A stretch of 59,118 nt of DNA from Candidatus Magasanikbacteria bacterium CG1_02_32_51 (GTDB taxonomy: Bacteria > Patescibacteriota > Patescibacteriia > Magasanikbacterales > UBA922), in the NCBI GenBank assembly GCA_001871435.1, contig MNVC01000014.1, positions 1 through 59,118 of the forward strand, read 5' to 3'. Below are positions 1,400 through 49,853 of this stretch, in pieces. The position numbers and the translations under genes are program-made. Position 1 is the first letter of the stretch, and every line of letters begins with the position of its first letter. The notes beneath the pieces were generated by a model. That model was not told the origin of the DNA. It did not search any database and was given only the letters and a program-made list of their open reading frames with translations.

Positions 1400-1972
1400 A
1401 TGCTTGACAAAAAACAACGCAAGCACAACCGTCTGATAAATTTTGATTACCAAACAAATGGATTGTATTTTGTTACGATTTGTACCAGAAATCGCGAGCA
1501 TCTGTTTGGTGGTGTCTATCACGATTTCATGTGTGTAAACAGAATTGGTTCAGTTGTATACAGACAATGGGAATGGTTATTTGTACAATATCCATACATA
1601 ATAAATCACGGTTTTATCGTCATGCCCAATCATGTACATGGGATTATTGAGATTGATAGGTCATTGATTGGTGACAAAGAATGGTTAGTCAAACACGGTA
1701 GGGACAGGTCTAGACCTGTCCCTACGGATGTTGCAAACAAACTTGATATTGAAATAAATATCAAACCAACAAAAATTTTATCATTATCAAATATAATCGG
1801 TGCATTCAAAACAACCTCGTCAAAAATAATCCACCAACAATGTTTGCTACGATTTGCCTGGCAAAGATCATTTCATGACCATATCATAAAAAATGAAAAA
1901 GAATATGACCAAATATATAAATATGTCCGTATGAACCCAGTGTTATGGAATAGAGATAGAAATAATATTTGA
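1400..1972 (+). mobile_element. REP-associated tyrosine transposase (RAYT / Y1 HUH family)
   Basis: YFVTICT, VMPNHVHGII (HUH) and WQRSFHDHII..Y..NP motifs; flanked by and containing REP palindromes. Confidence 0.9.
1698..1725. repeat. REP palindrome embedded in the RAYT coding sequence
   Basis: gtagggacaggtctagacctgtccctac, a perfect palindrome translated as GRDRSRPVPT. Confidence 0.9.
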
Positions 1973-2114
1973 GCATTTCTGTTACTTATCATTTTTGTGT
2001 ATTAAAAGAAACAAAAACATAGTACAATTTATACACAGTCAAGTTATTAACATTTGTTTGAAATGGGTGTATAATAGGTTTGTATCTCAATTTGTTATTA
2101 AAAATAATAAAGAT

Positions 2115-2717
2115 ATGATATATATTGAATTAGAAAATGGCTTAATTAAGCAAAAACCTGTATTTTCACTTCGTGATATTGAAAATGCTGGTTTTAAGGT
2201 TTATCCCTACCAATTGAATTTGTGGACTAAAAAAGGCTATCTCAAAAAATTAAAGGGTGGTTTTTATATATTTAGCAAAGCTAAGATTTCTAATGAAATT
2301 ATAGCTAATTATTTACGACAACCTTCGTACATATCTCTTGAGTATGCTTTGTATTTGTACAACTATACTGTTGATATACCTTTTCAAATAACTTCTGTAA
2401 CTACAAGGAATACGGCTAGAATACAAGTAGAAAATAATATTTTTATTTATTATCATGTGAAACCTAGTGTGTTCAATGGTTTTGTAAATAATAATAATTT
2501 TTTTCTGGCCACAGCAGAAAAAGCTTTGGTTGATCTGTTTTATTTGTATCCAAAAAAATTTAATAATAATGAAGATTTTTTTGAAGCACGTTTTCATGAA
2601 GAAATGATGAAAGAGAAATTGGATTGGGTTGGATTGTTTGACATTGCTAAATTGTATAATAATCAAAGTTTAGTAAGAAGATTGGAATCTTTTAAAAAAT
2701 ATATTTTTAATCAATAA
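2115..2717 (+). CDS. AbiEi-like antitoxin / transcriptional regulator (type IV TA)
   Basis: LKKLKGGFYIF, PSYISLEYAL, ITSVT and ATAEKALVDLFY motifs; directly upstream of AbiEii; ATG at 2115 preferred. Confidence 0.85.
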   Translation: MIYIELENGLIKQKPVFSLRDIENAGFKVYPYQLNLWTKKGYLKKLKGGFYIFSKAKISNEIIANYLRQPSYISLEYALYLYNYTVDIPFQITSVTTRNTARIQVENNIFIYYHVKPSVFNGFVNNNNFFLATAEKALVDLFYLYPKKFNNNEDFFEARFHEEMMKEKLDWVGLFDIAKLYNNQSLVRRLESFKKYIFNQ

Positions 2718-2720
2718 TTT

Positions 2721-3503
2721 ATGTTGAGCTTGGAACAAATTTTATTTTTTGCCAAACAACAAGGCTTGAAAGAAAGTAGTGAAAAACAGGCTATGGTTGA
2801 ATATTTGCAGACTTTGATATTGCAGTTGTTAGTCAAATATAAAGGATCAGATAAAATAAGCTTTATTGGTGGTACCAGTCTTCGTTTTTTTTATAATTTA
2901 CCTAGATTTTCGGAAGATTTGGATTTTGATAATTTTGGTTTATCAGAACAAGAATTTGACGAAATAATAAAAGAATTAGTCAAGGATTTAGTTTTGCGTG
3001 GTTTTGTAATAGATTCTCTTGTTAAGTTCAAAGGTGCTTATCATTGTTATTTACGTTTTTCAAATTTGTTGTATCAAAATAATTTGTCTACTCATGTTGA
3101 TGAAAAAATATTAGTAAAAATTGACACTACAAAGCAAGATTTTATTTTTAAGCCAGAAAGAAAATTTTTTAATCGTTATGGTATTACTGAAGAAATACAA
3201 GTAAACCCTATAGATATTTTGATGGCCCAAAAAACTATGGCACTTTTGGGTAGAAAAAGAGCCAAAGGAAGAGATTTTTTTGATTTTGTATTTTTGGATG
3301 GGATAACTAAGCCAAATTTAGAATATTTGAAAAAAGAATTAGGTATTGATTCTTTGGAGAAACTAAAGGTTTTAATTATAGAAAGATGTTCAATTTTGAA
3401 TTTTGATGATTTGGCAAAAGACGTAGAACCTTTTTTATTTAATTTTGATGATGTTGCCAAAGTAAGAAAATTCAGGCAATATATAACAGGCTGGAACGTA
3501 TAA
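2721..3503 (+). CDS. AbiEii/AbiGii nucleotidyltransferase toxin
   Basis: FIGGTSLRFFYNLPRFSEDLDF and K..ALLGR...RDFFD motifs. Confidence 0.9.
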   Translation: MLSLEQILFFAKQQGLKESSEKQAMVEYLQTLILQLLVKYKGSDKISFIGGTSLRFFYNLPRFSEDLDFDNFGLSEQEFDEIIKELVKDLVLRGFVIDSLVKFKGAYHCYLRFSNLLYQNNLSTHVDEKILVKIDTTKQDFIFKPERKFFNRYGITEEIQVNPIDILMAQKTMALLGRKRAKGRDFFDFVFLDGITKPNLEYLKKELGIDSLEKLKVLIIERCSILNFDDLAKDVEPFLFNFDDVAKVRKFRQYITGWNV

Positions 3504-3520
3504 CATTAATTTTAACACTC

Positions 3521-3538
3521 CTACCTGCCGGCAGGTAG
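3521..3538. repeat. Perfect 18-bp GC-rich palindrome
   Basis: ctacctgccggcaggtag; a degenerate relative lies at 47536-47555. Confidence 0.7.
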
Positions 3539-3593
3539 AAATAAAATCATGAATATTGTAGAATAGTCTTGTCTGGCAAATGAAAAATAGGAT

Positions 3594-3736
3594 TCGTCAT
3601 TTCGAGTGAAGTGAATGAGGTACGAACGAACGTAGTCGAGAAATCTCCTTTCATTTAGTAAATAAATAGATAGACAATGAGAGGAGATCCCTCGACTCCA
3701 TCCCGTACTTCGTCGGGACTACGCTCGGGATGACGA
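3594..3736. repeat. GTCAT...ATGAC REP-doublet-like inverted repeat unit
   Basis: tcgtcatttcgag...tcgagaaatctcct / ggagatccctcga...ctcgggatgacga; GC-rich island in AT-rich DNA. Confidence 0.7.
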
Positions 3737-3858
3737 TTTGGCTAGAATATTATTTTTTAACGTTTGTCTATGTCTGTTAGTTAAGACCTTTGTAGAAATA
3801 AGAATTATTGGATAAGAAATAAAAAAATAAAGTATAATAAATCAATAAATTTCGTTTT

Positions 3859-5871
3859 ATGCAAAAAACTCTAGAAAAAATTCTAAAAATAGTCATTGGT
3901 ATTACTTTTTTTGTACCTATTTTGGTTTTACCTACAGCCTATATTTTTCCTTTTATTGTACCCAAGATTATTTATTTTCGGTCTCTAGTTTTGGTGATGC
4001 TTGACCTCTATCTTGTATTACTTTTTAGTAATTTCCAGAAATATAGACCGAGATTTTCGTGGGTCAATATTGCTGTTTTATTATTTTTTATTTCATTTAC
4101 TATTTCTACTTTTGTGGGTGTGGATTGGTACAAGAGTTTTTGGGACAATCATGAGAGAATGCTTGGTCTTTTTACTATATTTCATTATGTAGTTTATTAT
4201 TTTATCATTACAACTGTAGTGCGTGATTGGTCTGAGTGGAAGTGGCTGATGCGTACATTTTTGTTGGCTGGATCTCTAGTTATGTTTATTGGTGTGTTGC
4301 AGAGATATGTCAATCCAGAATTACTTTTGAATAGGGGAGGGACTAGAGTTTCTTCCACACTTGGTAACGCTATTTATCTTAGTGGCTATGGATTGTTTTT
4401 ATTTTTTGTAGGATCACTATTGGCTGTCAAAGAAAAATTAAAAGCCAGGAATATTAAATTTTTGTCTGTGGAAGCTAGTTGGTTTTGGCTAGAAATTTTA
4501 GCTTCTTTGCTTGGACTTTGGGGTGTATTTTTGGGTAGTACTCGTGGAGCTTTAGTAGCCTTGATTGTTAGCTTGTTTGTTTTGTTAGCTATATACTTTT
4601 TTACTCTGAAAGGACAAAAGAAATTAAAACAGATTACAATGATTATTGTTTTGGTGGGTACTGTCCTTCTTGGTGTTTTGTATATGAACAGATCGGATGC
4701 TTTTGTGAGTAACTTACCAGCTTTTGGACGTCTTTTGAATACTAGTTTTTCACAAAAAGACACTAGAGTAATGGCTTGGGGAGTAGCGCTCGATGCTTGG
4801 ACAGAAAAACCTATTTTTGGTTGGGGACCAAACAACTACTACTATGCTTTCAACAAATATTATCGTGCGGAATTTTTGGAATATGGTTTTGGTGAAACTT
4901 GGTTTGATAATGCTCATAGTGTCATTATGAATACTTTGGCTGTACAGGGTATTGTTGGTTTACTTTTGTATATCAATATTTTTGTGTTAGCTACCATTTA
5001 TTTGTTGAAAAGATATAGAGAAGGTAAAGTGGATATTCATATTTTGGCCTTTGGTATAGCTTTTATCTGGGCACATTTTATTAGTGTGGCGACTGTTTTT
5101 GATAATCCTACTTCTTATCTTTATTTTTTCTTTTTTCTCGCTCTAGTTTCTGGTTTTACTGAGAAATCAAAACAAGAAAATACAACTAAGAGTAATAGGG
5201 AAGTCTCTATGCCTTGGGCGGTATTTGTTTCTTTGTTGATGCTTCTTTTCATCTATAGTACTGATGTCAATTCAGCACGAGCCAACAAATCAGCTCTTTT
5301 GGCTATTAGGGATTTGAATGCTGGAAAGGATTATACCAAAGACTACAAAGATGCTACCTCTATTCCTTCACCACATGTTGATGATATTAGGAATGACACT
5401 GCCCGTATCTTTAGTGATATTGTCTCTCAGATATTAAAGGATCCAAAAGTAAAAGAAAAAGATAAATGGCAAATACTTGAACCTTTTTATAATCAAGCTG
5501 TAGGAAATTTGAACAAAAATATTGAATTACATCCAAATGATATTAGAGTAAGTTTACAATTGGCTCAAATACAAATTTATGGGGCTGTAGCAAAACAAGA
5601 TGTCAATCTTTTACTTGAAGCAGAAAAGACACTAGAAGGCACTTTGCTTTTGTCACCAAAAAGACAACAGATACAGTATATGTTGGCTGGTGTCAAACAA
5701 AATTTGCAAAAAACTGACGAAGCTATCAAGCTTTTGCGAGATAGTATTGATAATGACCCAAATATTCCTAATGGTTGGCAACAATTGGAAAGTTTGTATA
5801 ATGGATTGGGAGATATTGAAAAAGCCAAGGCGTTGCGGGCGGAGGCGTTGGAAAAGGGGATTACTTTTTAG
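3859..5871 (+). CDS. O-antigen ligase/polymerase-family membrane protein with C-terminal TPR-like region
   Basis: Many TM helices; STLGN, STRGA, KPIFGWGPNNY and FDNAHS motifs; helical-repeat tail. Confidence 0.85.
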   Translation: MQKTLEKILKIVIGITFFVPILVLPTAYIFPFIVPKIIYFRSLVLVMLDLYLVLLFSNFQKYRPRFSWVNIAVLLFFISFTISTFVGVDWYKSFWDNHERMLGLFTIFHYVVYYFIITTVVRDWSEWKWLMRTFLLAGSLVMFIGVLQRYVNPELLLNRGGTRVSSTLGNAIYLSGYGLFLFFVGSLLAVKEKLKARNIKFLSVEASWFWLEILASLLGLWGVFLGSTRGALVALIVSLFVLLAIYFFTLKGQKKLKQITMIIVLVGTVLLGVLYMNRSDAFVSNLPAFGRLLNTSFSQKDTRVMAWGVALDAWTEKPIFGWGPNNYYYAFNKYYRAEFLEYGFGETWFDNAHSVIMNTLAVQGIVGLLLYINIFVLATIYLLKRYREGKVDIHILAFGIAFIWAHFISVATVFDNPTSYLYFFFFLALVSGFTEKSKQENTTKSNREVSMPWAVFVSLLMLLFIYSTDVNSARANKSALLAIRDLNAGKDYTKDYKDATSIPSPHVDDIRNDTARIFSDIVSQILKDPKVKEKDKWQILEPFYNQAVGNLNKNIELHPNDIRVSLQLAQIQIYGAVAKQDVNLLLEAEKTLEGTLLLSPKRQQIQYMLAGVKQNLQKTDEAIKLLRDSIDNDPNIPNGWQQLESLYNGLGDIEKAKALRAEALEKGITF

Positions 5872-45529: not shown

Positions 45530-45772
45530 ATGATTACTATCGTCAAAGCTACATCCAAAGGACAAATCACTATACCTGCTTCTTGGAGGAAGCGTTTTGT
45601 TACCAATAGATATTTGGTAGAAATAAAAAATTCTCATTTAGAGATCAAACCATTTGATCTAGACAAACTAACAGAAAAACAAGAATATACAGTCTTTGAT
45701 GCTATTCGTGATAATGATGGCAAGGGAATCAAAGCTAGTGATTTACAAAAGATTTTGAAGAAAACTTATTAA
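45530..45772 (+). CDS. AbrB/MazE/SpoVT-type antitoxin
   Basis: VKATSKGQITIPASWRK. Confidence 0.85.
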   Translation: MITIVKATSKGQITIPASWRKRFVTNRYLVEIKNSHLEIKPFDLDKLTEKQEYTVFDAIRDNDGKGIKASDLQKILKKTY

Positions 45773-45782
45773 TAATTTTTCT

Positions 45783-46037
45783 ATGGATAAAATAGAAAAA
45801 TTATTGCGAAAGATAAATCAGAAAAGTAGAGAACAATTGCTTACTATTATTACTAGATTATTAGCAGGAGAAAGACATGGTCTTAATATAAAAAGATTAA
45901 TAGGTACAGATTTTTGTCGTCTACGTTCGGGACGATTTAGAATTATTTTTCATTATGAAGGAAAAAATAGAGAAATAATAATAGATAGTATTAAATTACG
46001 AGATGAAAATACTTATAATGAAAATACTTATAAATAA
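45783..46037 (+). CDS. RelE/ParE-family toxin
   Basis: IKRLIG..FCRLRSGRFRIIF; downstream of the AbrB gene; 15-bp tandem duplication at its 3' end (46003-46032). Confidence 0.8.
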   Translation: MDKIEKLLRKINQKSREQLLTIITRLLAGERHGLNIKRLIGTDFCRLRSGRFRIIFHYEGKNREIIIDSIKLRDENTYNENTYK

Positions 46038-46040
46038 AAA

Positions 46041-46080
46041 AATAACCCCGCTTTTCGTGAAAGGCGGGGTTGTTTTTTTA
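46041..46080. terminator. Bidirectional intrinsic terminator between the TA and tRNA loci
   Basis: aataaccccgcttttcgtgaaaggcggggttgttttttt. Confidence 0.8.
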
Positions 46081-46142
46081 GCGGATCGGACGAGGCTCGA
46101 ACTCGCAACTTTCCCGACTGAGTCGGGATGCTCTAACCAGTT
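46081..46142 (-). pseudogene. tRNA-Asp-derived 3' fragment with the anticodon arm replaced by tcccgactcagtcggga
   Basis: Near-identical to the tRNA at 46188-46248 except the 17-nt arm and one acceptor-stem base; 5' acceptor strand missing. Confidence 0.85.
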
Positions 46143-46184
46143 TTTGTCCAATTTTTGGTCTGAAAATAAAAAAGATAGATTACT

Positions 46185-46261
46185 TGGCGGACCGGACGAG
46201 GCTCGAACTCGCAACTTCTGCCGTGACAGGGCAGTGCTCTAACCAGTTGAACTACCGGTCC
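46185..46261 (-). tRNA. tRNA-Asp (GTC)
   Basis: ggaccggtagttcaactggttagagcactgccctGTCacggcagaagttgcgagttcgagcctcgtccggtccgCCA; full cloverleaf with encoded CCA. Confidence 0.97.
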
Positions 46262-46279
46262 GCTAAATTATCTATCAAA

Positions 46280-46525
46280 TTACCATTTTGTTCTATATAC
46301 CAAAGAACGTACTTTTTTTTTTGCTTTTTTAAGTTTTGTTTCCAAATTACAGGCTTCTTTGTTTGAATGGCATTCTATATATCCTATAAGTAACCAAGGT
46401 TCACCTTTCTTAGTATATTGCTCTTGTCCGAGGTTATGTTCGTTCAACCTTCTTTTTAAATCATTTGTTTTACCTATATAGTATTTGTTAATTTTTTTAC
46501 TATATAAGTAATATACCCTCCACAT
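46280..46525 (-). CDS. GIY-YIG nuclease family protein, probably frameshifted in an A10 run near its end
   Basis: VYYLYS..KYYIGKTNDLKRRLNEHN..YTK..PW..A..LE. Confidence 0.88.
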   Translation of the reverse strand: MWRVYYLYSKKINKYYIGKTNDLKRRLNEHNLGQEQYTKKGEPWLLIGYIECHSNKEACNLETKLKKAKKKVRSLVYRTKW

Positions 46526-46543
46526 ATTATTTTATATTAGGAT

Positions 46544-46603
46544 TCGAACTCGCAACTTTCCCGACTGAGTCGGGATGCTCTAACCAGTTGAACTACCGGT
46601 CCG
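46544..46603 (-). pseudogene. tRNA-Asp-derived 5' fragment with the same anticodon-arm replacement, running into the GIY-YIG leader
   Basis: ggaccggtagttcaactggttagagca-tcccgactcagtcggga-aagttgcgagttcga; 3' acceptor strand missing. Confidence 0.85.
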
Positions 46604-46638
46604 TAAATTTATAATATTTTTAGCTTTGAACTTTTTTG

Positions 46639-46690
46639 AACCAGTTGTCCGCCAAAGGCGGATCCGCCTTTGGCGGAAACTACCGGTCCG
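46639..46690 (-). pseudogene. tRNA-Asp 5' fragment with a 30-bp palindrome inserted in the D arm
   Basis: aaccagttg[tccgccaaaggcggatccgcctttggcgga]aactaccggtccg. Confidence 0.8.
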
Positions 46691-46732
46691 TAAATTTATA
46701 TTGTTTGAAATAGAGAAATCTATTTTTGAGAA

Positions 46733-46800
46733 AGATCCTGATCCCGATAAAATCTGGACAGGATGACAAATACTGCCATTTCGGACTTAATCCAGAATCT
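46733..46800. repeat. GTCA..TGAC REP-like pair with a tcccga-type loop
   Basis: agatcctga[tcccgataaaatctgga]caggatgac ... gccatttcggacttaatccagaatct. Confidence 0.6.
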
Positions 46801-46814
46801 TTTCTAAACAAAAA

Positions 46815-46943
46815 TTATTTAGCTACAGTTGCTTCTTTAGCTTTTTTGATAGCTACACGTTTTTGTTTTTTTCTGTCCCTAGTAATCTTTGCTTTGTCAC
46901 GTGCAATTTTGATTTGAGCATTGATTTTTTTTCTCATTCCCAT
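46815..46943 (-). CDS. 42-aa highly basic small protein (absent from the ORF track)
   Basis: MGMRKKINAQIKIARDKAKITRDRKKQKRVAIKKAKEATVAK*; own TTGACA-17-TATTAT promoter at 47002-46974. Confidence 0.7.
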   Translation of the reverse strand: MGMRKKINAQIKIARDKAKITRDRKKQKRVAIKKAKEATVAK

Positions 46944-47014
46944 ATAATTTGGTTATTTTTTAATACGGATAATATAATACCTTTTTTTGAGACAAATGTC
47001 AATATACAAGTCTG

Positions 47015-47721: not shown

Positions 47722-47812
47722 CAAAAAAGACCCTTTTAGTGTTTGACGCGACATGAGGAGCAAAGGAGGGGGAGCTCCAGCCAACGCCAAACACTAAAAA
47801 AGTCTTTTACAT
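47722..47812 (-). ncRNA. Candidate ~90-nt small RNA (long stem, C-rich loop, U-tail)
   Basis: TTGACA-17-TATCAT promoter with extended TG (47847-47819); stem of about 20 bp aaaagactttttagtgtttggcg/cgtcaaacactaaaagggtctttt; no convincing ORF. Confidence 0.5.
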
Positions 47813-49441: not shown

Positions 49442-49448
49442 AATTTTG

Positions 49449-49853
49449 TGGAGATGCCGGGAATTGAACCCGGGTCTAGATGGGTTATCCCCATATTCTA
49501 CATGTATAGCTAATTTGGTATTTTGTTGGTAGCTAGAAAATTAGCAAAACCACTACCAACTATTCTGAATTGTTGTCAATTGAAACTGTCAGAAAGCCAT
49601 TTCAATTTACGCTCAATGGGGGTTGACACCGCAGATCTCAATATTGAGTATCTCGAGATGCGATGGTAGATGAGCTTATTAAGCTACTACAGATGCGAAT
49701 GATGGCATACTGAAAGCAGAAGCTACAGCAGTTCTCACTCGACTTACTAAGTTTACACTTAGGGATTCTACGCCGGTATTTACGAGGAAAGCGTAGCTCC
49801 TCGACATGCTTATGAAGGGTAACTAGGTCCAACTATCGAACCCTGTCATCCCC
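49449..49853 (-). ncRNA. ssrA: tmRNA
   Basis: 5' GGGGATGACAGGGTTCGA, 3' GGGTTCAATTCCCGGCATCTCCA with G3:U acceptor stem; internal tag frame ends GCT TAA TAA; adjacent to smpB. Confidence 0.95.

What the first reader, a model, noticed from the sequence alone, without database searches (positions are those of the whole stretch)
46081..46700. tRNA-Asp surrounded by tRNA-like copies with a precisely swapped anticodon arm, bracketing a GIY-YIG nuclease
Seen, in minus-strand order: 5' tRNA fragment with D-arm insertion, 5' fragment with swapped arm, GIY-YIG, intact tRNA-Asp, 3' fragment with swapped arm. In both swapped copies the 17-nt anticodon arm ctgccctgtcacggcag is replaced by the identical 17-nt palindrome tcccgactcagtcggga, with the flanks unchanged. 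No integrase is present, so this is not an ordinary att duplication. Inference: a tRNA-targeting selfish unit in which the nuclease gene is co-transcribed within tRNA-like leaders that could be processed by RNase P, or in which altered copies act as cleavage-resistant targets, decoys or guides.
Basis: partly seen in the sequence, partly recalled or inferred. Interest (0 to 1): 0.8.

Follow-up and report, generated by a model that had tools for sequence, protein, structure and literature searches.

The report
Nuclease cassette nested in tRNA gene
A tiny nuclease gene and a working tRNA-Asp sit between the two halves of a disabled tRNA-Asp copy, and the same design recurs at many tRNA genes across these ultra-small groundwater bacteria, which points to an undescribed family of selfish cassettes that live inside tRNA genes.

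Summary
On the minus strand lie copy A, copy B, an 81-aa GIY-YIG gene, the genome's only detected tRNA-Asp, then copy C. B and C share an exact 46-nt core. In that core the 17-nt anticodon arm is replaced by TCCCGACTCAGTCGGGA.

It is not an artefact. Contigs of two runs from different studies tile it.

It is not unique. In this genome 5 of 7 small GIY-YIG genes abut tRNAs. In relatives 33 of 64 do, all on the tRNA's strand. Of 38 such loci, 28 carry partial copies of that same tRNA. GC hairpins sit at 40 of 80 fragment break points, against 60 of 2000 control windows.

Four congeners have a clean, empty tRNA-Asp site.

The nuclease genes show purifying selection (dN/dS 0.08-0.29). In 6 of 8 pairs they are younger than the flanking host genes.

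The pseudo-tRNA halves are about 96% conserved where third codon positions differ by 25%. The cassette's tRNA has a covarying 14-bp leader-trailer clamp.

Best reading: a mobile, homing-type GIY-YIG cassette family of CPR bacteria that targets tRNA genes, closest to phage SegB. The mechanism is inferred, not shown.

The parts
46639..46700 (-). Copy A. A 5' pseudo-tRNA-Asp fragment: leader (46700-46690), tRNA bases 1-12 (46689-46678), an inserted 30-nt palindrome, then bases 13-21 (46647-46639).
   Evidence: repeat family D2; inverted pair I5. In run X2 one contig joins the upstream flank to a copy without the palindrome (joint 46142/46678, shorter side 23 nt, placement ambiguous).
46648..46677 (.). 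A perfect 30-nt palindrome (TCCGCCAAAGGCGGA / TCCGCCTTTGGCGGA). It is a dispersed repeat of this genome.
   Evidence: I5; blastn matches at more than 20 places on 12 other contigs; contig depth of 2100-3900 over this stretch in three runs.
46544..46613 (-). Copy B (Psi5'): leader, tRNA bases 1-27, the palindrome in place of the 17-nt anticodon arm, then bases 45-59. It ends in the T loop, 18 nt before the nuclease ATG.
   Evidence: (D1, D3). Not called a tRNA.
46559..46575 (.). The 17-nt palindrome TCCCGACTCAGTCGGGA that replaces the anticodon arm in B.
   Evidence: The same hairpin type sits at the same place in the pseudo-tRNA copies of all 9 loci of the Asp / Ile(tat) / Val(tac) nuclease subclade.
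46280..46525 (-). Minimal GIY-YIG nuclease gene, 81 aa. It has the catalytic domain only and belongs to the UPF0213/SLX1-like branch.
   Evidence: PF01541, E 4.7e-16; invariant Y5, Y16, G18, R26, H30, E62; the profile's best PDB matches are 1zg2, 1ywl, then SLX1; dN/dS 0.08-0.29 in related pairs.
46185..46261 (-). Intact tRNA-Asp(GTC), the only tRNA-Asp detected in the assembly.
   Evidence: It is 77 of 77 identical to the tRNA-Asp at the empty site of congener G002.
46174..46276 (-). Leader-trailer clamp. Inverted repeats (46276-46255 and 46195-46174) extend the acceptor stem of the intact tRNA by about 14 bp.
   Evidence: I2: 22 nt, 86% complementary; 14 pairs, 92.9% paired in 6 genomes, 6 pairs with compensatory changes; slid controls give 36-46% paired; 12-14 of 14 positions pair in cassette tRNAs, against 2-7 of 14 in 16 other tRNA-Asp loci.
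46081..46142 (-). Copy C (Psi3'): tRNA bases 14-27, the same palindrome (46128-46112), then bases 45-75 with one acceptor mismatch and no CCA.
   Evidence: (D1, D4).
46035..46080 (.). A GC hairpin flanked by A and T runs. It is a likely two-way terminator that closes the unit.
   Evidence: I1: 22-nt arms, 91% complementary. Terminator-type Rfam look-alikes appear. The consensus scan did not call it.

Best explanation
The locus is one member of a large family of small cassettes in Candidate Phyla Radiation (CPR) bacteria that live inside tRNA genes. This genome is a Magasanikbacteria-type MAG.

Each cassette carries a minimal GIY-YIG nuclease of the UPF0213/SLX1-like branch, on the same strand as a tRNA gene. 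Partial copies of that same tRNA bracket it. GC-rich palindromic hairpins mark the break points of those copies.

In the tRNA-Asp lineage the full design is:
- a 5' half of a disabled tRNA-Asp, with a palindrome in place of the anticodon arm;
- the nuclease gene;
- a complete replacement tRNA-Asp held by a leader-trailer clamp;
- a 3' half of the disabled copy, with the same palindrome.

Inferred mechanism: the nuclease makes breaks in or at tRNA genes. Recombinational repair against a cassette-bearing copy then spreads the cassette to empty tRNA genes of related cells (homing). The tRNA-derived halves act as portable homology arms. Unequal repair also creates the partial duplications, as shown for phage SegB.

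The essential tRNA survives because the cassette carries or rebuilds a whole copy. The host then depends on that copy.

The hairpins travel with the nuclease lineage and are conserved, so they are probably working parts of the cassette. They could be a structure or binding site in DNA, or a fold in the co-transcript.

Shown: the anatomy, its recurrence, presence/absence among congeners, selection, and relative age. Inferred: cleavage of tRNA genes, homing, and the role of the hairpins.
For: ANATOMY AND READS.

RECURRENCE IN THE OWN GENOME.
- PF01541 finds 8 places: one 448-aa UvrC-like frame and 7 small genes.
- 5 of the 7 abut tRNAs: Asp, Thr, Phe, Pro and Cys.
- 6 of 32 tRNAs have local partial copies, and 5 of those 6 are the GIY-YIG neighbours.
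- My arithmetic: about 1.5% of the genome lies within 160 nt of a tRNA.

RELATIVES.
- 33 of 64 small GIY-YIG rows lie within 160 nt of a tRNA. That is 29 of 60 without the four loci picked by likeness to the window's protein. All 33 are on the tRNA's strand.
- 28 of 38 tRNA-adjacent loci hold same-strand partial copies of that tRNA; 11 have them on both sides.
- The neighbour tRNAs bear 23 different anticodons, plus one with a four-base reading.

TREE. Two clades split at SH-aLRT 96-97. In clade I, 1 of 24 rows is tRNA-adjacent. In clade II, 35 of 45 are.

PHYLUM.
- 176 of 301 genomes hold a profile match.
- In the 28 best loci, 11 of 30 rows are adjacent, 11 of 11 on the same strand, and 7 have partial copies.
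- L128, from another family, repeats the Asp design with different hairpin and clamp sequences.
- One Asp-specific nuclease clade is not rejected (p-AU 0.505).

CLOSEST HOMOLOGUES. All 4 (54-71% identity, Magasanikbacteria MAGs) sit upstream of tRNA-Asp with the same design.

MOBILITY.
- Four congeners have a clean, empty tRNA-Asp site in the same gene context.
- Occupied tRNAs differ between the seven congeners.
- The nuclease dS (0.24-0.75) is lower than that of every flanking host gene (0.82 to saturated) in 6 of 8 pairs.

CONSTRAINT.
- dN/dS is 0.08-0.29.
- In L064 against L065, likeness starts and stops at the outer tRNA ends. Psi5' is 55 of 57 identical and Psi3' 78 of 81. Third codon positions differ at 20 of 79, and the spacer is only 5 of 28 identical.

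HAIRPINS.
- 40 of 80 internal fragment ends have a GC hairpin within 30 nt, against 60 of 2000 random windows.
- The hairpin type follows the nuclease subclade across different tRNAs.

CLAMP. It covaries.

PRECEDENT. SegB cuts inside tRNA genes, drives recombination-dependent segmental amplification of segB plus tRNA-Tyr, and is enriched near tRNAs in phages (PMC13096335: abstract and sections 9 and 10 read).
Against: - No nuclease assay and no RNA data exist. No RNA holder was listed.
- The protein has no DNA-binding domain, so site-specific cutting is not expected of it alone. Its nearest solved relatives are SLX1-type structure-specific enzymes, not I-TevI.
- The intact tRNA in the cassette keeps the native anticodon arm. 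The swap therefore cannot by itself give self-immunity.
- 31 of 64 small GIY-YIG rows in relatives, and 19 of 30 in the phylum sample, are not within 160 nt of a tRNA.
- 10 of 38 adjacent loci show no partial copy.
- Some fragments keep the native arm: Pro on C32, and His on C16, which has no nuclease gene at all.
- One pair, L015/C3, has a nuclease dS (1.18) above its flank (0.57). In another pair, L026/L080, the nuclease gene and one flank are saturated and the other flank's dS is 3.02.
- The genes are short, about 80 codons, and the trees rest on 87-88 columns with many open forks.
- Empty sites in congeners could be precise losses by recombination between the repeats rather than never-occupied sites.
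- No excised, circular or empty-plus-filled form of this strain was seen in the contigs.
Confidence: 0.6

Rival explanations
1. RNA-level device. The two pseudo-tRNA halves with their palindromes, and the clamp on the intact tRNA, are folding and processing signals of one co-transcript. The halves pair and close the transcript. The clamp keeps the real tRNA from mispairing with its look-alike halves and gives a double-strand cleavage site. tRNA processing then releases and stabilises the nuclease mRNA. This could hold together with mobility.
For: - The tRNA and the nuclease gene share a strand in 33 of 33 relatives' loci, 11 of 11 phylum loci and all own loci.
- Gaps are often 0-3 nt. For example, 'cta' plus ATG follows directly after tRNA-Phe and after tRNA-Pro on C32.
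- The predicted fold of 46078-46604 pairs B with C through the acceptor strands and the two palindromes. The tRNA forms its own clamped domain (MFE -146 kcal/mol, z -4.82).
- The clamp covaries.
- Hairpin stems are conserved or change compensatorily while their loops vary.
- The halves are conserved far above neutral sites.
Against: - There are no RNA data.
- Palindromes and acceptor strands pair by construction, so the fold is not independent evidence.
- The clamp is seen only in the Asp lineage.
- B alone lacks what RNase P needs.
- In L064 and L065 the T arm of the 3' half is itself replaced by a hairpin.
- This reading does not explain the empty sites or the younger nuclease genes.
Confidence: 0.3
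2. Inert debris. The partial copies are neutral scars of local duplications near tRNA genes. The palindromes are REP-like elements, moved by another enzyme, that pile up in any dispensable DNA. The nuclease is a domesticated host gene with no part in this.
For: - Both palindromes are dispersed in the genome outside tRNAs.
- Y1 (IS200/RAYT-type) transposase genes exist on C43 and C28.
- A tRNA-His fragment plus palindrome occurs without any nuclease gene on C16. So does the G013 tRNA-Asp locus.
- The palindrome in copy A looks polymorphic between strains.
Against: - 5 of the 6 tRNAs with partial copies in this genome are the ones next to GIY-YIG genes.
- The pseudo halves, including hairpins that have no second copy in the locus, are about 96% identical. 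In the same pair third codon positions differ by 25% and the spacers are unalignable.
- The design recurs with different sequences in a distant family.
- The hairpin type tracks the nuclease subclade.
- The Y1 genes are flanked by other palindrome families.
Confidence: 0.1
3. Classical integrase-made att duplication of a genomic island at a tRNA gene, or an assembly artefact of repeated tRNA sequence.
For: Direct repeats of tRNA parts flanking inserted DNA are the hallmark of tRNA-targeting islands. The repeats here do break short-read contigs.
Against: - The insert is about 450 bp and codes only for the nuclease and a tRNA.
- There is no tyrosine recombinase on this contig, and none among the neighbouring ORFs.
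- Both 5' and 3' fragments occur, and they overlap.
- Contigs of two runs from different studies bridge every junction.
- The design recurs in dozens of independent assemblies.
Confidence: 0.03

Closest known systems
Phage T4/T6 SegB, a free-standing GIY-YIG homing endonuclease in the tRNA gene cluster. Sources: PMC2330249 (search listing and start of abstract seen); PMC13096335 (abstract and sections 9 and 10 read).
   Same: A GIY-YIG nuclease gene sits beside tRNA genes of many isotypes. SegB cuts inside tRNA genes. Recombination-dependent repair makes segmental duplications that contain the nuclease gene and a whole tRNA. SegB shows preferential inheritance of the tRNA region.
   Different: - SegB is a phage protein with a C-terminal part beyond the catalytic domain. 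The CPR proteins are 80-90 aa and belong to the UPF0213/SLX1-like branch.
- The window protein matches no PHROG and no cultured phage.
- Here the cassettes sit in cellular chromosomes, nested in a split pseudo-tRNA with conserved hairpin-swapped arms and a clamped replacement tRNA.
Free-standing GIY-YIG ORFs of fungal mitochondria that insert into a gene and bring a copy of its end, leaving the displaced end as a pseudo-fragment (Allomyces atp6). This is recalled, not seen here.
   Same: The host gene is kept whole by a duplicated piece carried with the nuclease gene. A displaced fragment remains beside it.
   Different: Those targets are protein genes in organelles. No hairpin-swapped halves or clamp are known there.
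tRNA-targeting integrative elements with att duplications. Prokaryotic tRNA gene fragments are discussed in 10.1101/2022.07.05.498093 (listing and start of abstract seen; 0 occurrences of GIY-YIG in that search).
   Same: Partial tRNA copies flank inserted DNA, and the functional tRNA is restored by element-borne sequence.
   Different: Here there is no integrase. The insert is about 450 bp. The fragments are of both halves and overlap. Break points lie in the anticodon arm, D loop and T loop rather than at the 3' end.
REP/RAYT palindromes of bacteria and GC clusters of yeast mitochondria (properties recalled).
   Same: Short GC-rich palindromes are dispersed through an AT-rich genome, mostly between genes.
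   Different: The Y1 transposase genes of this genome are flanked by other palindrome families. Here specific hairpin types co-occur with specific nuclease lineages inside pseudo-tRNAs.
Insertion sequences with homing endonucleases in rRNA genes of CPR bacteria (PMC11270868, passages read).
   Same: Same phylum. Stable-RNA genes serve as landing sites. GIY-YIG proteins occur there in insertions that are not introns. Insertions lie at the top or base of stem-loops.
   Different: That study concerns rRNA genes; the word tRNA does not occur in its main text. It judged GIY-YIG to be rare and outside spread by homing.
UPF0213 proteins (PDB 1zg2, 1ywl) and SLX1 structure-specific endonuclease.
   Same: These are the best sequence-profile matches to the cassette nucleases (E 6e-16, 2e-11 and 1.7e-6). 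They share the minimal GIY-YIG fold.
   Different: No tRNA association is known to me for them (recalled). A second clade in these same genomes resembles them more and is not tRNA-linked: 1 of 24 rows.

Membership tests
GIY-YIG nuclease superfamily (Pfam PF01541) | Catalytic domain match above the curated cut-off | tested here: met
   59.3 bits against a cut-off of 22.6, E 4.7e-16, covering residues 1-71.
GIY-YIG nuclease superfamily (Pfam PF01541) | Conserved catalytic set: Tyr of GIY, Tyr and Gly of YIG, Arg, His, Glu. The roles of these residues are recalled from I-TevI and UvrC work. | tested here: met
   Y5, Y16, G18, R26, H30 and E62 are invariant in 17 sequences.
UPF0213 / SLX1-like branch | Closest solved relatives by profile | tested here: met
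   1zg2 at 6.3e-16, 1ywl at 1.9e-11, SLX1 (7cq2) at 1.7e-6, I-TevI (1mk0) at only 1.2e-3.
Homing endonuclease of the I-TevI / Seg type | A DNA-binding domain joined to the catalytic domain | tested here: not met
   The protein is 81 aa and Pfam finds the catalytic domain only. NCBIfam's group I intron endonuclease model scores 18.9 bits against a cut-off of 56.
Homing endonuclease of the I-TevI / Seg type | Alleles with and without the gene at the same site in related genomes | tested here: met
   four congeners have an empty tRNA-Asp site in the same gene context. Different tRNAs are occupied in different congeners.
Homing endonuclease of the I-TevI / Seg type | The element is younger than its genomic surroundings (horizontal spread) | tested here: inconclusive
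   the nuclease dS is lower than all flanks in 6 of 8 pairs, higher in 1, and saturated in 1. The genes are short.
Homing endonuclease of the I-TevI / Seg type | Site-specific cleavage of the empty allele | not testable with these tools
   This needs an enzyme assay.
Integrase-mediated tRNA-site island | A recombinase gene within or beside the insert | tested here: not met
   PF00589 matches only on C48 and C38. The neighbouring ORFs are a toxin-antitoxin pair, a small basic ORF and a SprT-like ORF. Serine recombinases were not searched.
Functional tRNA (for the swapped copies) | Recognised by tRNA models and forming a complete cloverleaf | tested here: not met
   (E up to 10): only 46185-46261 is called. 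B lacks the 3' third and C the 5' 13 bases.
Group I intron with a homing endonuclease in a tRNA anticodon loop | An intron RNA fold around the ORF that interrupts a single tRNA | tested here: not met
   no intron family appears among the 30 matches up to E = 10. An uninterrupted tRNA lies beside the ORF.
REP/RAYT system (for the palindromes) | A Y1 transposase gene flanked by the same palindromes | tested here: not met
   Y1 genes are present, but other hairpin families flank them.

The most novel reading that the evidence does not exclude
The hairpin plus nuclease is a new kind of minimal mobile element that works through DNA shape rather than sequence.

An SLX1-like GIY-YIG enzyme without any DNA-binding domain would recognise extruded hairpins or cruciforms. 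Its own palindromes and the stem-loops of tRNA genes would both qualify. It would cut there, so tRNA genes of any identity become landing sites.

A split pseudo-tRNA with palindromic arms would then form the element's inverted-repeat ends. A clamped tRNA would be carried along as hostage and replacement.

A variant of this reading: the transcribed pseudo-tRNA half guides the enzyme to tRNA genes by base pairing.
Probability: 0.15. Interest if true: 0.9.

Novelty: new variant of a known kind. Interest (0 to 1): 0.72.

Why it matters
- CPR bacteria have tiny genomes with mostly single-copy tRNA genes. Yet in the sampled genomes up to five tRNA genes each carry a nuclease cassette that splits or duplicates them.
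- If these cassettes are mobile, tRNA genes are a main highway of gene flow and of genome instability in this large, uncultured part of the bacterial tree.
- An 80-aa nuclease would be one of the smallest homing-type agents known.
- The work extends the SegB-tRNA link from phages to cellular chromosomes.
- It gives a natural example of an essential gene captured by a selfish element.
- It offers testable RNA and DNA devices: a hairpin-for-arm swap and an acceptor clamp.
- It warns annotators that pseudo-tRNA halves and contig breaks around tRNAs in CPR genomes are systematic, not noise.

Tried and rejected
Assembly artefact: rejected (and recurrence).

Integrase att site: rejected.

Suppressor tRNA: the swapped arm would read UCA in the anticodon position. 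I considered a suppressor tRNA and dropped it. The copies are fragments, the loop has C at position 33, and no tRNA model calls them.

Group I intron: no Rfam match.

RAYT as mover of these palindromes: Y1 genes exist but carry other palindromes.

Phage vector:
- The viral contig scan gave only distant matches (39-54% over the N-terminal half), many in giant-virus bins. I did not analyse those loci.
- The cultured-phage collection gave no match.
- PHROGs gave no family for the window protein.

Expression: no RNA holder was listed, so nothing can be said about it.

Excised or circular forms: no joint across the 46-nt repeats was listed. Contigs drop rare forms, so this is no evidence either way. 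Other joints come from other loci or other organisms. For example, 46261/46852, with 12 other letters, is an empty-site relative.

Literature: searches found no paper on GIY-YIG genes with partial tRNA copies or hairpin-swapped pseudo-tRNAs in bacteria.

Not done: structure prediction, complex prediction, the protein atlas and the large protein searches were not used, because the family assignment was already clear. The association was not tested outside this phylum.

Rows dropped:
- One search set aside L032 (own genome) and one 320-aa frame (L030).
- Loci L035, L068 and L074 gave no profile row.
- The trees left out products under 60 aa: the two halves of the C43 gene and L036.
- One search left out L102 (the same place as L013) and L117 (own genome).
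- The E-value classes were set after seeing the data and are descriptive only.
Full report
WHAT IS THERE.

- Copy A holds an 11-nt leader and tRNA-Asp bases 1-12. Then comes a perfect 30-nt palindrome (46677-46648), then bases 13-21.
- Copy B holds the same leader, bases 1-27, the 17-nt palindrome TCCCGACTCAGTCGGGA in place of the 17-nt anticodon arm, and bases 45-59. It stops in the T loop.
- Eighteen bases later an 81-codon ORF starts (46525-46280). It is a GIY-YIG catalytic domain and nothing else (PF01541, E 4.7e-16).
- Eighteen bases after its stop lies the only tRNA-Asp that ARAGORN finds in the 837-kb, 48-contig assembly (Rfam 62.6 bits).
- Copy C follows after a 42-nt spacer: bases 14-27, the same palindrome, then bases 45-75 with one acceptor mismatch and no CCA. 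A terminator-like hairpin comes next.
- B and C share an exact 46-nt repeat. Neither is called a tRNA, even at E = 10.

IS IT REAL. In run X1, which may be the source sample, eight overlapping contigs without a single difference tile 45800-47000. Each bridges one repeat-to-unique junction. Run X2, from another study, shows the same order with a few substitutions. A high-depth joint from the tRNA's 5' end straight to the upstream small ORF, with 12 other letters, belongs to other organisms that have the empty arrangement.

THE PALINDROMES ARE NOT LOCAL INVENTIONS.
- The 30-nt palindrome of copy A occurs at more than 20 other places on 12 contigs. It reaches depths in the thousands in three metagenome runs.
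- The 17-nt one occurs, with at most one change in its centre, at four other intergenic places.
- The genome is 32% G+C. It holds 132 perfect GC-rich hairpins against 2 after shuffling.
- Two Y1 transposase genes exist, but other palindrome families flank them.

THE ARRANGEMENT IS A RULE, NOT AN ODDITY. In this genome PF01541 finds one UvrC-like frame and seven small genes. Five of the seven touch tRNA genes:
- Asp, in the window.
- Thr on C43. A 5' fragment of tRNA-Thr plus a hairpin lies upstream, and the gene has one in-frame TGA.
- Phe and Pro on C32. The two nuclease genes start 3 nt after the tRNAs. A pseudo-Phe has its arm replaced by a hairpin, and a 3' fragment of Pro lies behind a hairpin.
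- Cys on C3. A full-length pseudo-Cys has bases 27-54 replaced by a 24-nt palindrome.

Six of the 32 tRNAs have local partial copies, and five of those six are these.

In 40 relatives plus four named Magasanikbacteria MAGs, 33 of 64 small GIY-YIG rows lie within 160 nt of a tRNA. All 33 are on the tRNA's strand. Without the four loci chosen by likeness the count is 29 of 60. About 1.5% would be expected from tRNA density (my arithmetic).

Of 38 distinct tRNA-adjacent loci, 28 hold same-strand partial copies of that very tRNA, and 11 have them on both sides. The placement is orderly. A nuclease gene upstream of the tRNA has a 5' fragment just upstream of it. A nuclease gene downstream has a 3' fragment behind it. 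Fragment ends cluster at bases 22-28 or 34-36 and resume at 44-47 or 54-55, that is, around the anticodon arm.

Forty of 80 internal fragment ends have a GC hairpin within 30 nt, against 60 of 2000 random windows of the same loci.

TWO KINDS OF SMALL GIY-YIG. A tree of 69 rows, later 96, splits at SH-aLRT 96-97. One clade has 1 of 24 rows next to a tRNA. The other has 35 of 45, and 4 of its 10 exceptions lie at contig ends. Only 87-88 columns carry the tree and many forks are open.

Within the tRNA-linked clade, lineages follow tRNA identity (Asp 5, Ile-tat 3, Leu-caa 3, Glu 2). There are also switches between tRNAs. The hairpin type follows the nuclease lineage rather than the genome:
- All nine members of the Asp/Ile/Val subclade have TCCCGAY..RTCGGGA right after bases 22-27.
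- The Cys/Cys/Trp subclade has a CCCCGCC..GGCGGGG palindrome, with the tRNA resuming at 54-55.
- The sister pair L018 and C32-Pro shares AGGCTGACCAGCCT.

This genome alone uses five hairpin types at its five loci.

Across the phylum, 176 of 301 sampled genomes have a profile match. Of 30 rows in the 28 best loci, 11 are tRNA-adjacent, all on the same strand, and 7 have partial copies.

THE tRNA-ASP LINEAGE. The four closest homologues of the window's protein (54-71% identity, all Magasanikbacteria MAGs) each sit upstream of tRNA-Asp with the same design. That design is a 5' half with the TCCCGAC-type hairpin for the arm, the nuclease, an intact tRNA, and a 3' half starting near base 17 with the same hairpin.

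- G013, another genus, has the halves and the tRNA but no nuclease gene. One of its halves has compensatory changes in the hairpin stem.
- L128, from another family of the phylum, has the same design built from a different tRNA-Asp sequence, a different palindrome and a different clamp.
- A single Asp clade of nucleases is not rejected (p-AU 0.505).

- In six genomes 92.9% of cells pair and 6 of 14 pairs show changes on both sides. Slid controls pair at 36-46%.
- Sixteen other tRNA-Asp loci of relatives pair at 2-7 of 14 positions, against 12-14 in cassettes.
- Other tRNA lineages lack the clamp.

SIGNS OF MOBILITY.
- Four congeners (G002, G004, G005, G006) have the same gene context: SprT-like gene, small basic ORF, about 70 nt, tRNA-Asp, terminator. 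They have no nuclease and no fragments. G002's tRNA is 77 of 77 identical to the window's.
- The leader of the window's intact tRNA resembles that of L062's cassette tRNA, not the congeners' leader.
- Conversely, congeners carry nuclease genes at Ile-tat, Leu-caa, Gln, Ser-gga, Gly and Tyr, where this genome has none.
- In 6 of 8 pairs of loci that share flanking host genes, the nuclease gene's dS (0.24-0.75) is below that of every flank (0.82 to saturated). One pair is the reverse. In another pair the nuclease gene and one flank are saturated.
- L064 and L065 are syntenic, yet rplT differs at 61 of 114 third positions and the nuclease gene at 20 of 79.

SIGNS OF FUNCTION.
- dN/dS of the nuclease genes is 0.08-0.29, and the catalytic residues are invariant.
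- Between L064 and L065, likeness begins at base 1 of the 5' half and ends at the last base of the 3' half.
- In that pair the 5' half is 55 of 57 identical, the 5' UTR 22 of 22, the tRNA 75 of 75 and the 3' half 78 of 81. The spacer is 5 of 28 and the flanks 8 of 18 and 10 of 48.
- The 3' half includes hairpins that have no other copy in the locus.

The halves are therefore constrained, not decaying.

HOW IT MOST LIKELY WORKS. The closest known system is phage SegB. It is a GIY-YIG nuclease encoded among tRNA genes that cuts inside tRNA genes. Through recombination it produces segmental duplications holding its own gene and a whole tRNA. It is enriched near tRNAs of many isotypes (PMC13096335: abstract and sections 9 and 10).

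I read the CPR cassettes as the cellular, minimal counterpart.
1. Breaks at tRNA genes are repaired from a cassette-bearing copy.
2. The tRNA-derived halves serve as homology arms that fit any related genome.
3. The essential tRNA is kept by duplication.
4. Unequal repair leaves further fragments, such as copy A.

After insertion the only working tRNA-Asp lies inside the cassette. Recombination across the 46-nt repeat would leave a dead, hairpin-armed gene.

Three things stay open.
- The protein has no DNA-binding domain, and its nearest solved relatives are UPF0213 proteins and SLX1, a structure-specific enzyme. I-TevI is only a weak match.
- The intact tRNA keeps the native arm, so the swap alone cannot protect the cassette.
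- Conserved, lineage-specific hairpins ask for a role.

Two roles fit. They could be DNA shapes that the enzyme recognises. Or they could be RNA folds: the predicted fold of the whole unit pairs B with C through the acceptor strands and the palindromes and sets the clamped tRNA apart. That pairing follows by construction, and no RNA data exist.

WHAT IS NEW. Four literature searches found nothing on GIY-YIG genes with partial tRNA copies in bacteria. The CPR rRNA-insertion study mentions GIY-YIG but never tRNA in its main text. Supplements could not be read.

The kind is known: a GIY-YIG selfish gene at tRNA genes, and a target gene kept whole by duplication. The variant appears undescribed. 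It combines chromosomal 80-aa SLX1-like nucleases, a split pseudo-tRNA with palindromic arms under constraint, a clamped replacement tRNA, and spread over more than half of the sampled CPR genomes.

Noticed in passing
window 49446-49853 (-): A tmRNA gene (Rfam RF00023, 136.7 bits). ARAGORN did not report it.
   Followed up: no
window 47725-47810 (-): An ~85-nt GC-rich hairpin with a promoter-like TTGACA..TATGAT upstream and a T run behind it, lying between rplT and the SprT-like gene. Look-alikes stand at the same place in G004 (L042), G013 (L043), L064 and L065 (88% identical between the last two). No Rfam family matched. It is a candidate small RNA.
   Followed up: partly
window 45530-46037 (+): A convergent pair of small ORFs with weak MazE/AbrB-like (E 2.9e-4) and ParE-like (E 9e-3) matches. 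It is probably a toxin-antitoxin pair and ends at the shared terminator of the cassette.
   Followed up: no
own genome C43:134-496 and C28:29002-29346; window 1760-1930: Y1 (IS200/RAYT-type) transposase genes. The C43 copy is bounded by CCCTGTGG..CCACAGGG hairpins. The C28 copy has one in-frame TAG and is bounded by repeated GTCCCTCTGGGAC palindromes. A weak match lies in the window itself.
   Followed up: partly
own genome C16:749-941: A 5' fragment of tRNA-His (bases 1-54, native anticodon arm), then a variant of the 30-nt palindrome, 31 nt, then the intact tRNA-His. No nuclease gene is present.
   Followed up: partly
own genome C29:4486-4574; L091 (G036): tRNA-Ser with anticodon ACT, called by ARAGORN in two genomes. 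In G036 it sits in a tandem pair of tRNA-Ser plus nuclease units with near-identical nuclease genes.
   Followed up: no
L090 (G013:C6), tRNA at 1108-1182: ARAGORN calls a tRNA of unknown identity with a four-base anticodon reading (ttaa), 16 nt from a GIY-YIG gene.
   Followed up: no
own genome C3:1-200: The nuclease gene at tRNA-Cys is cut at its 5' end by the end of an ORF that reads like the C-terminus of an IS30-type transposase. This is my reading of the translation, made by eye from the DNA printed, and it was not searched.
   Followed up: no
window 46648-46677, run X2: One contig of run X2 (depth 9) joins the flank upstream of copy A to a tRNA 5' part without the 30-nt palindrome. Another contig (depth 5) has the palindrome. 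This is a possible presence/absence polymorphism of the palindrome or of the A/B duplication (shorter side only 23 nt).
   Followed up: partly
L033 (G039), 1846-1945: A run of N follows directly behind the intact tRNA-Pro of a cassette, then two tandem 3' pseudo-tRNA copies. The assembly is scaffolded or masked there.
   Followed up: no
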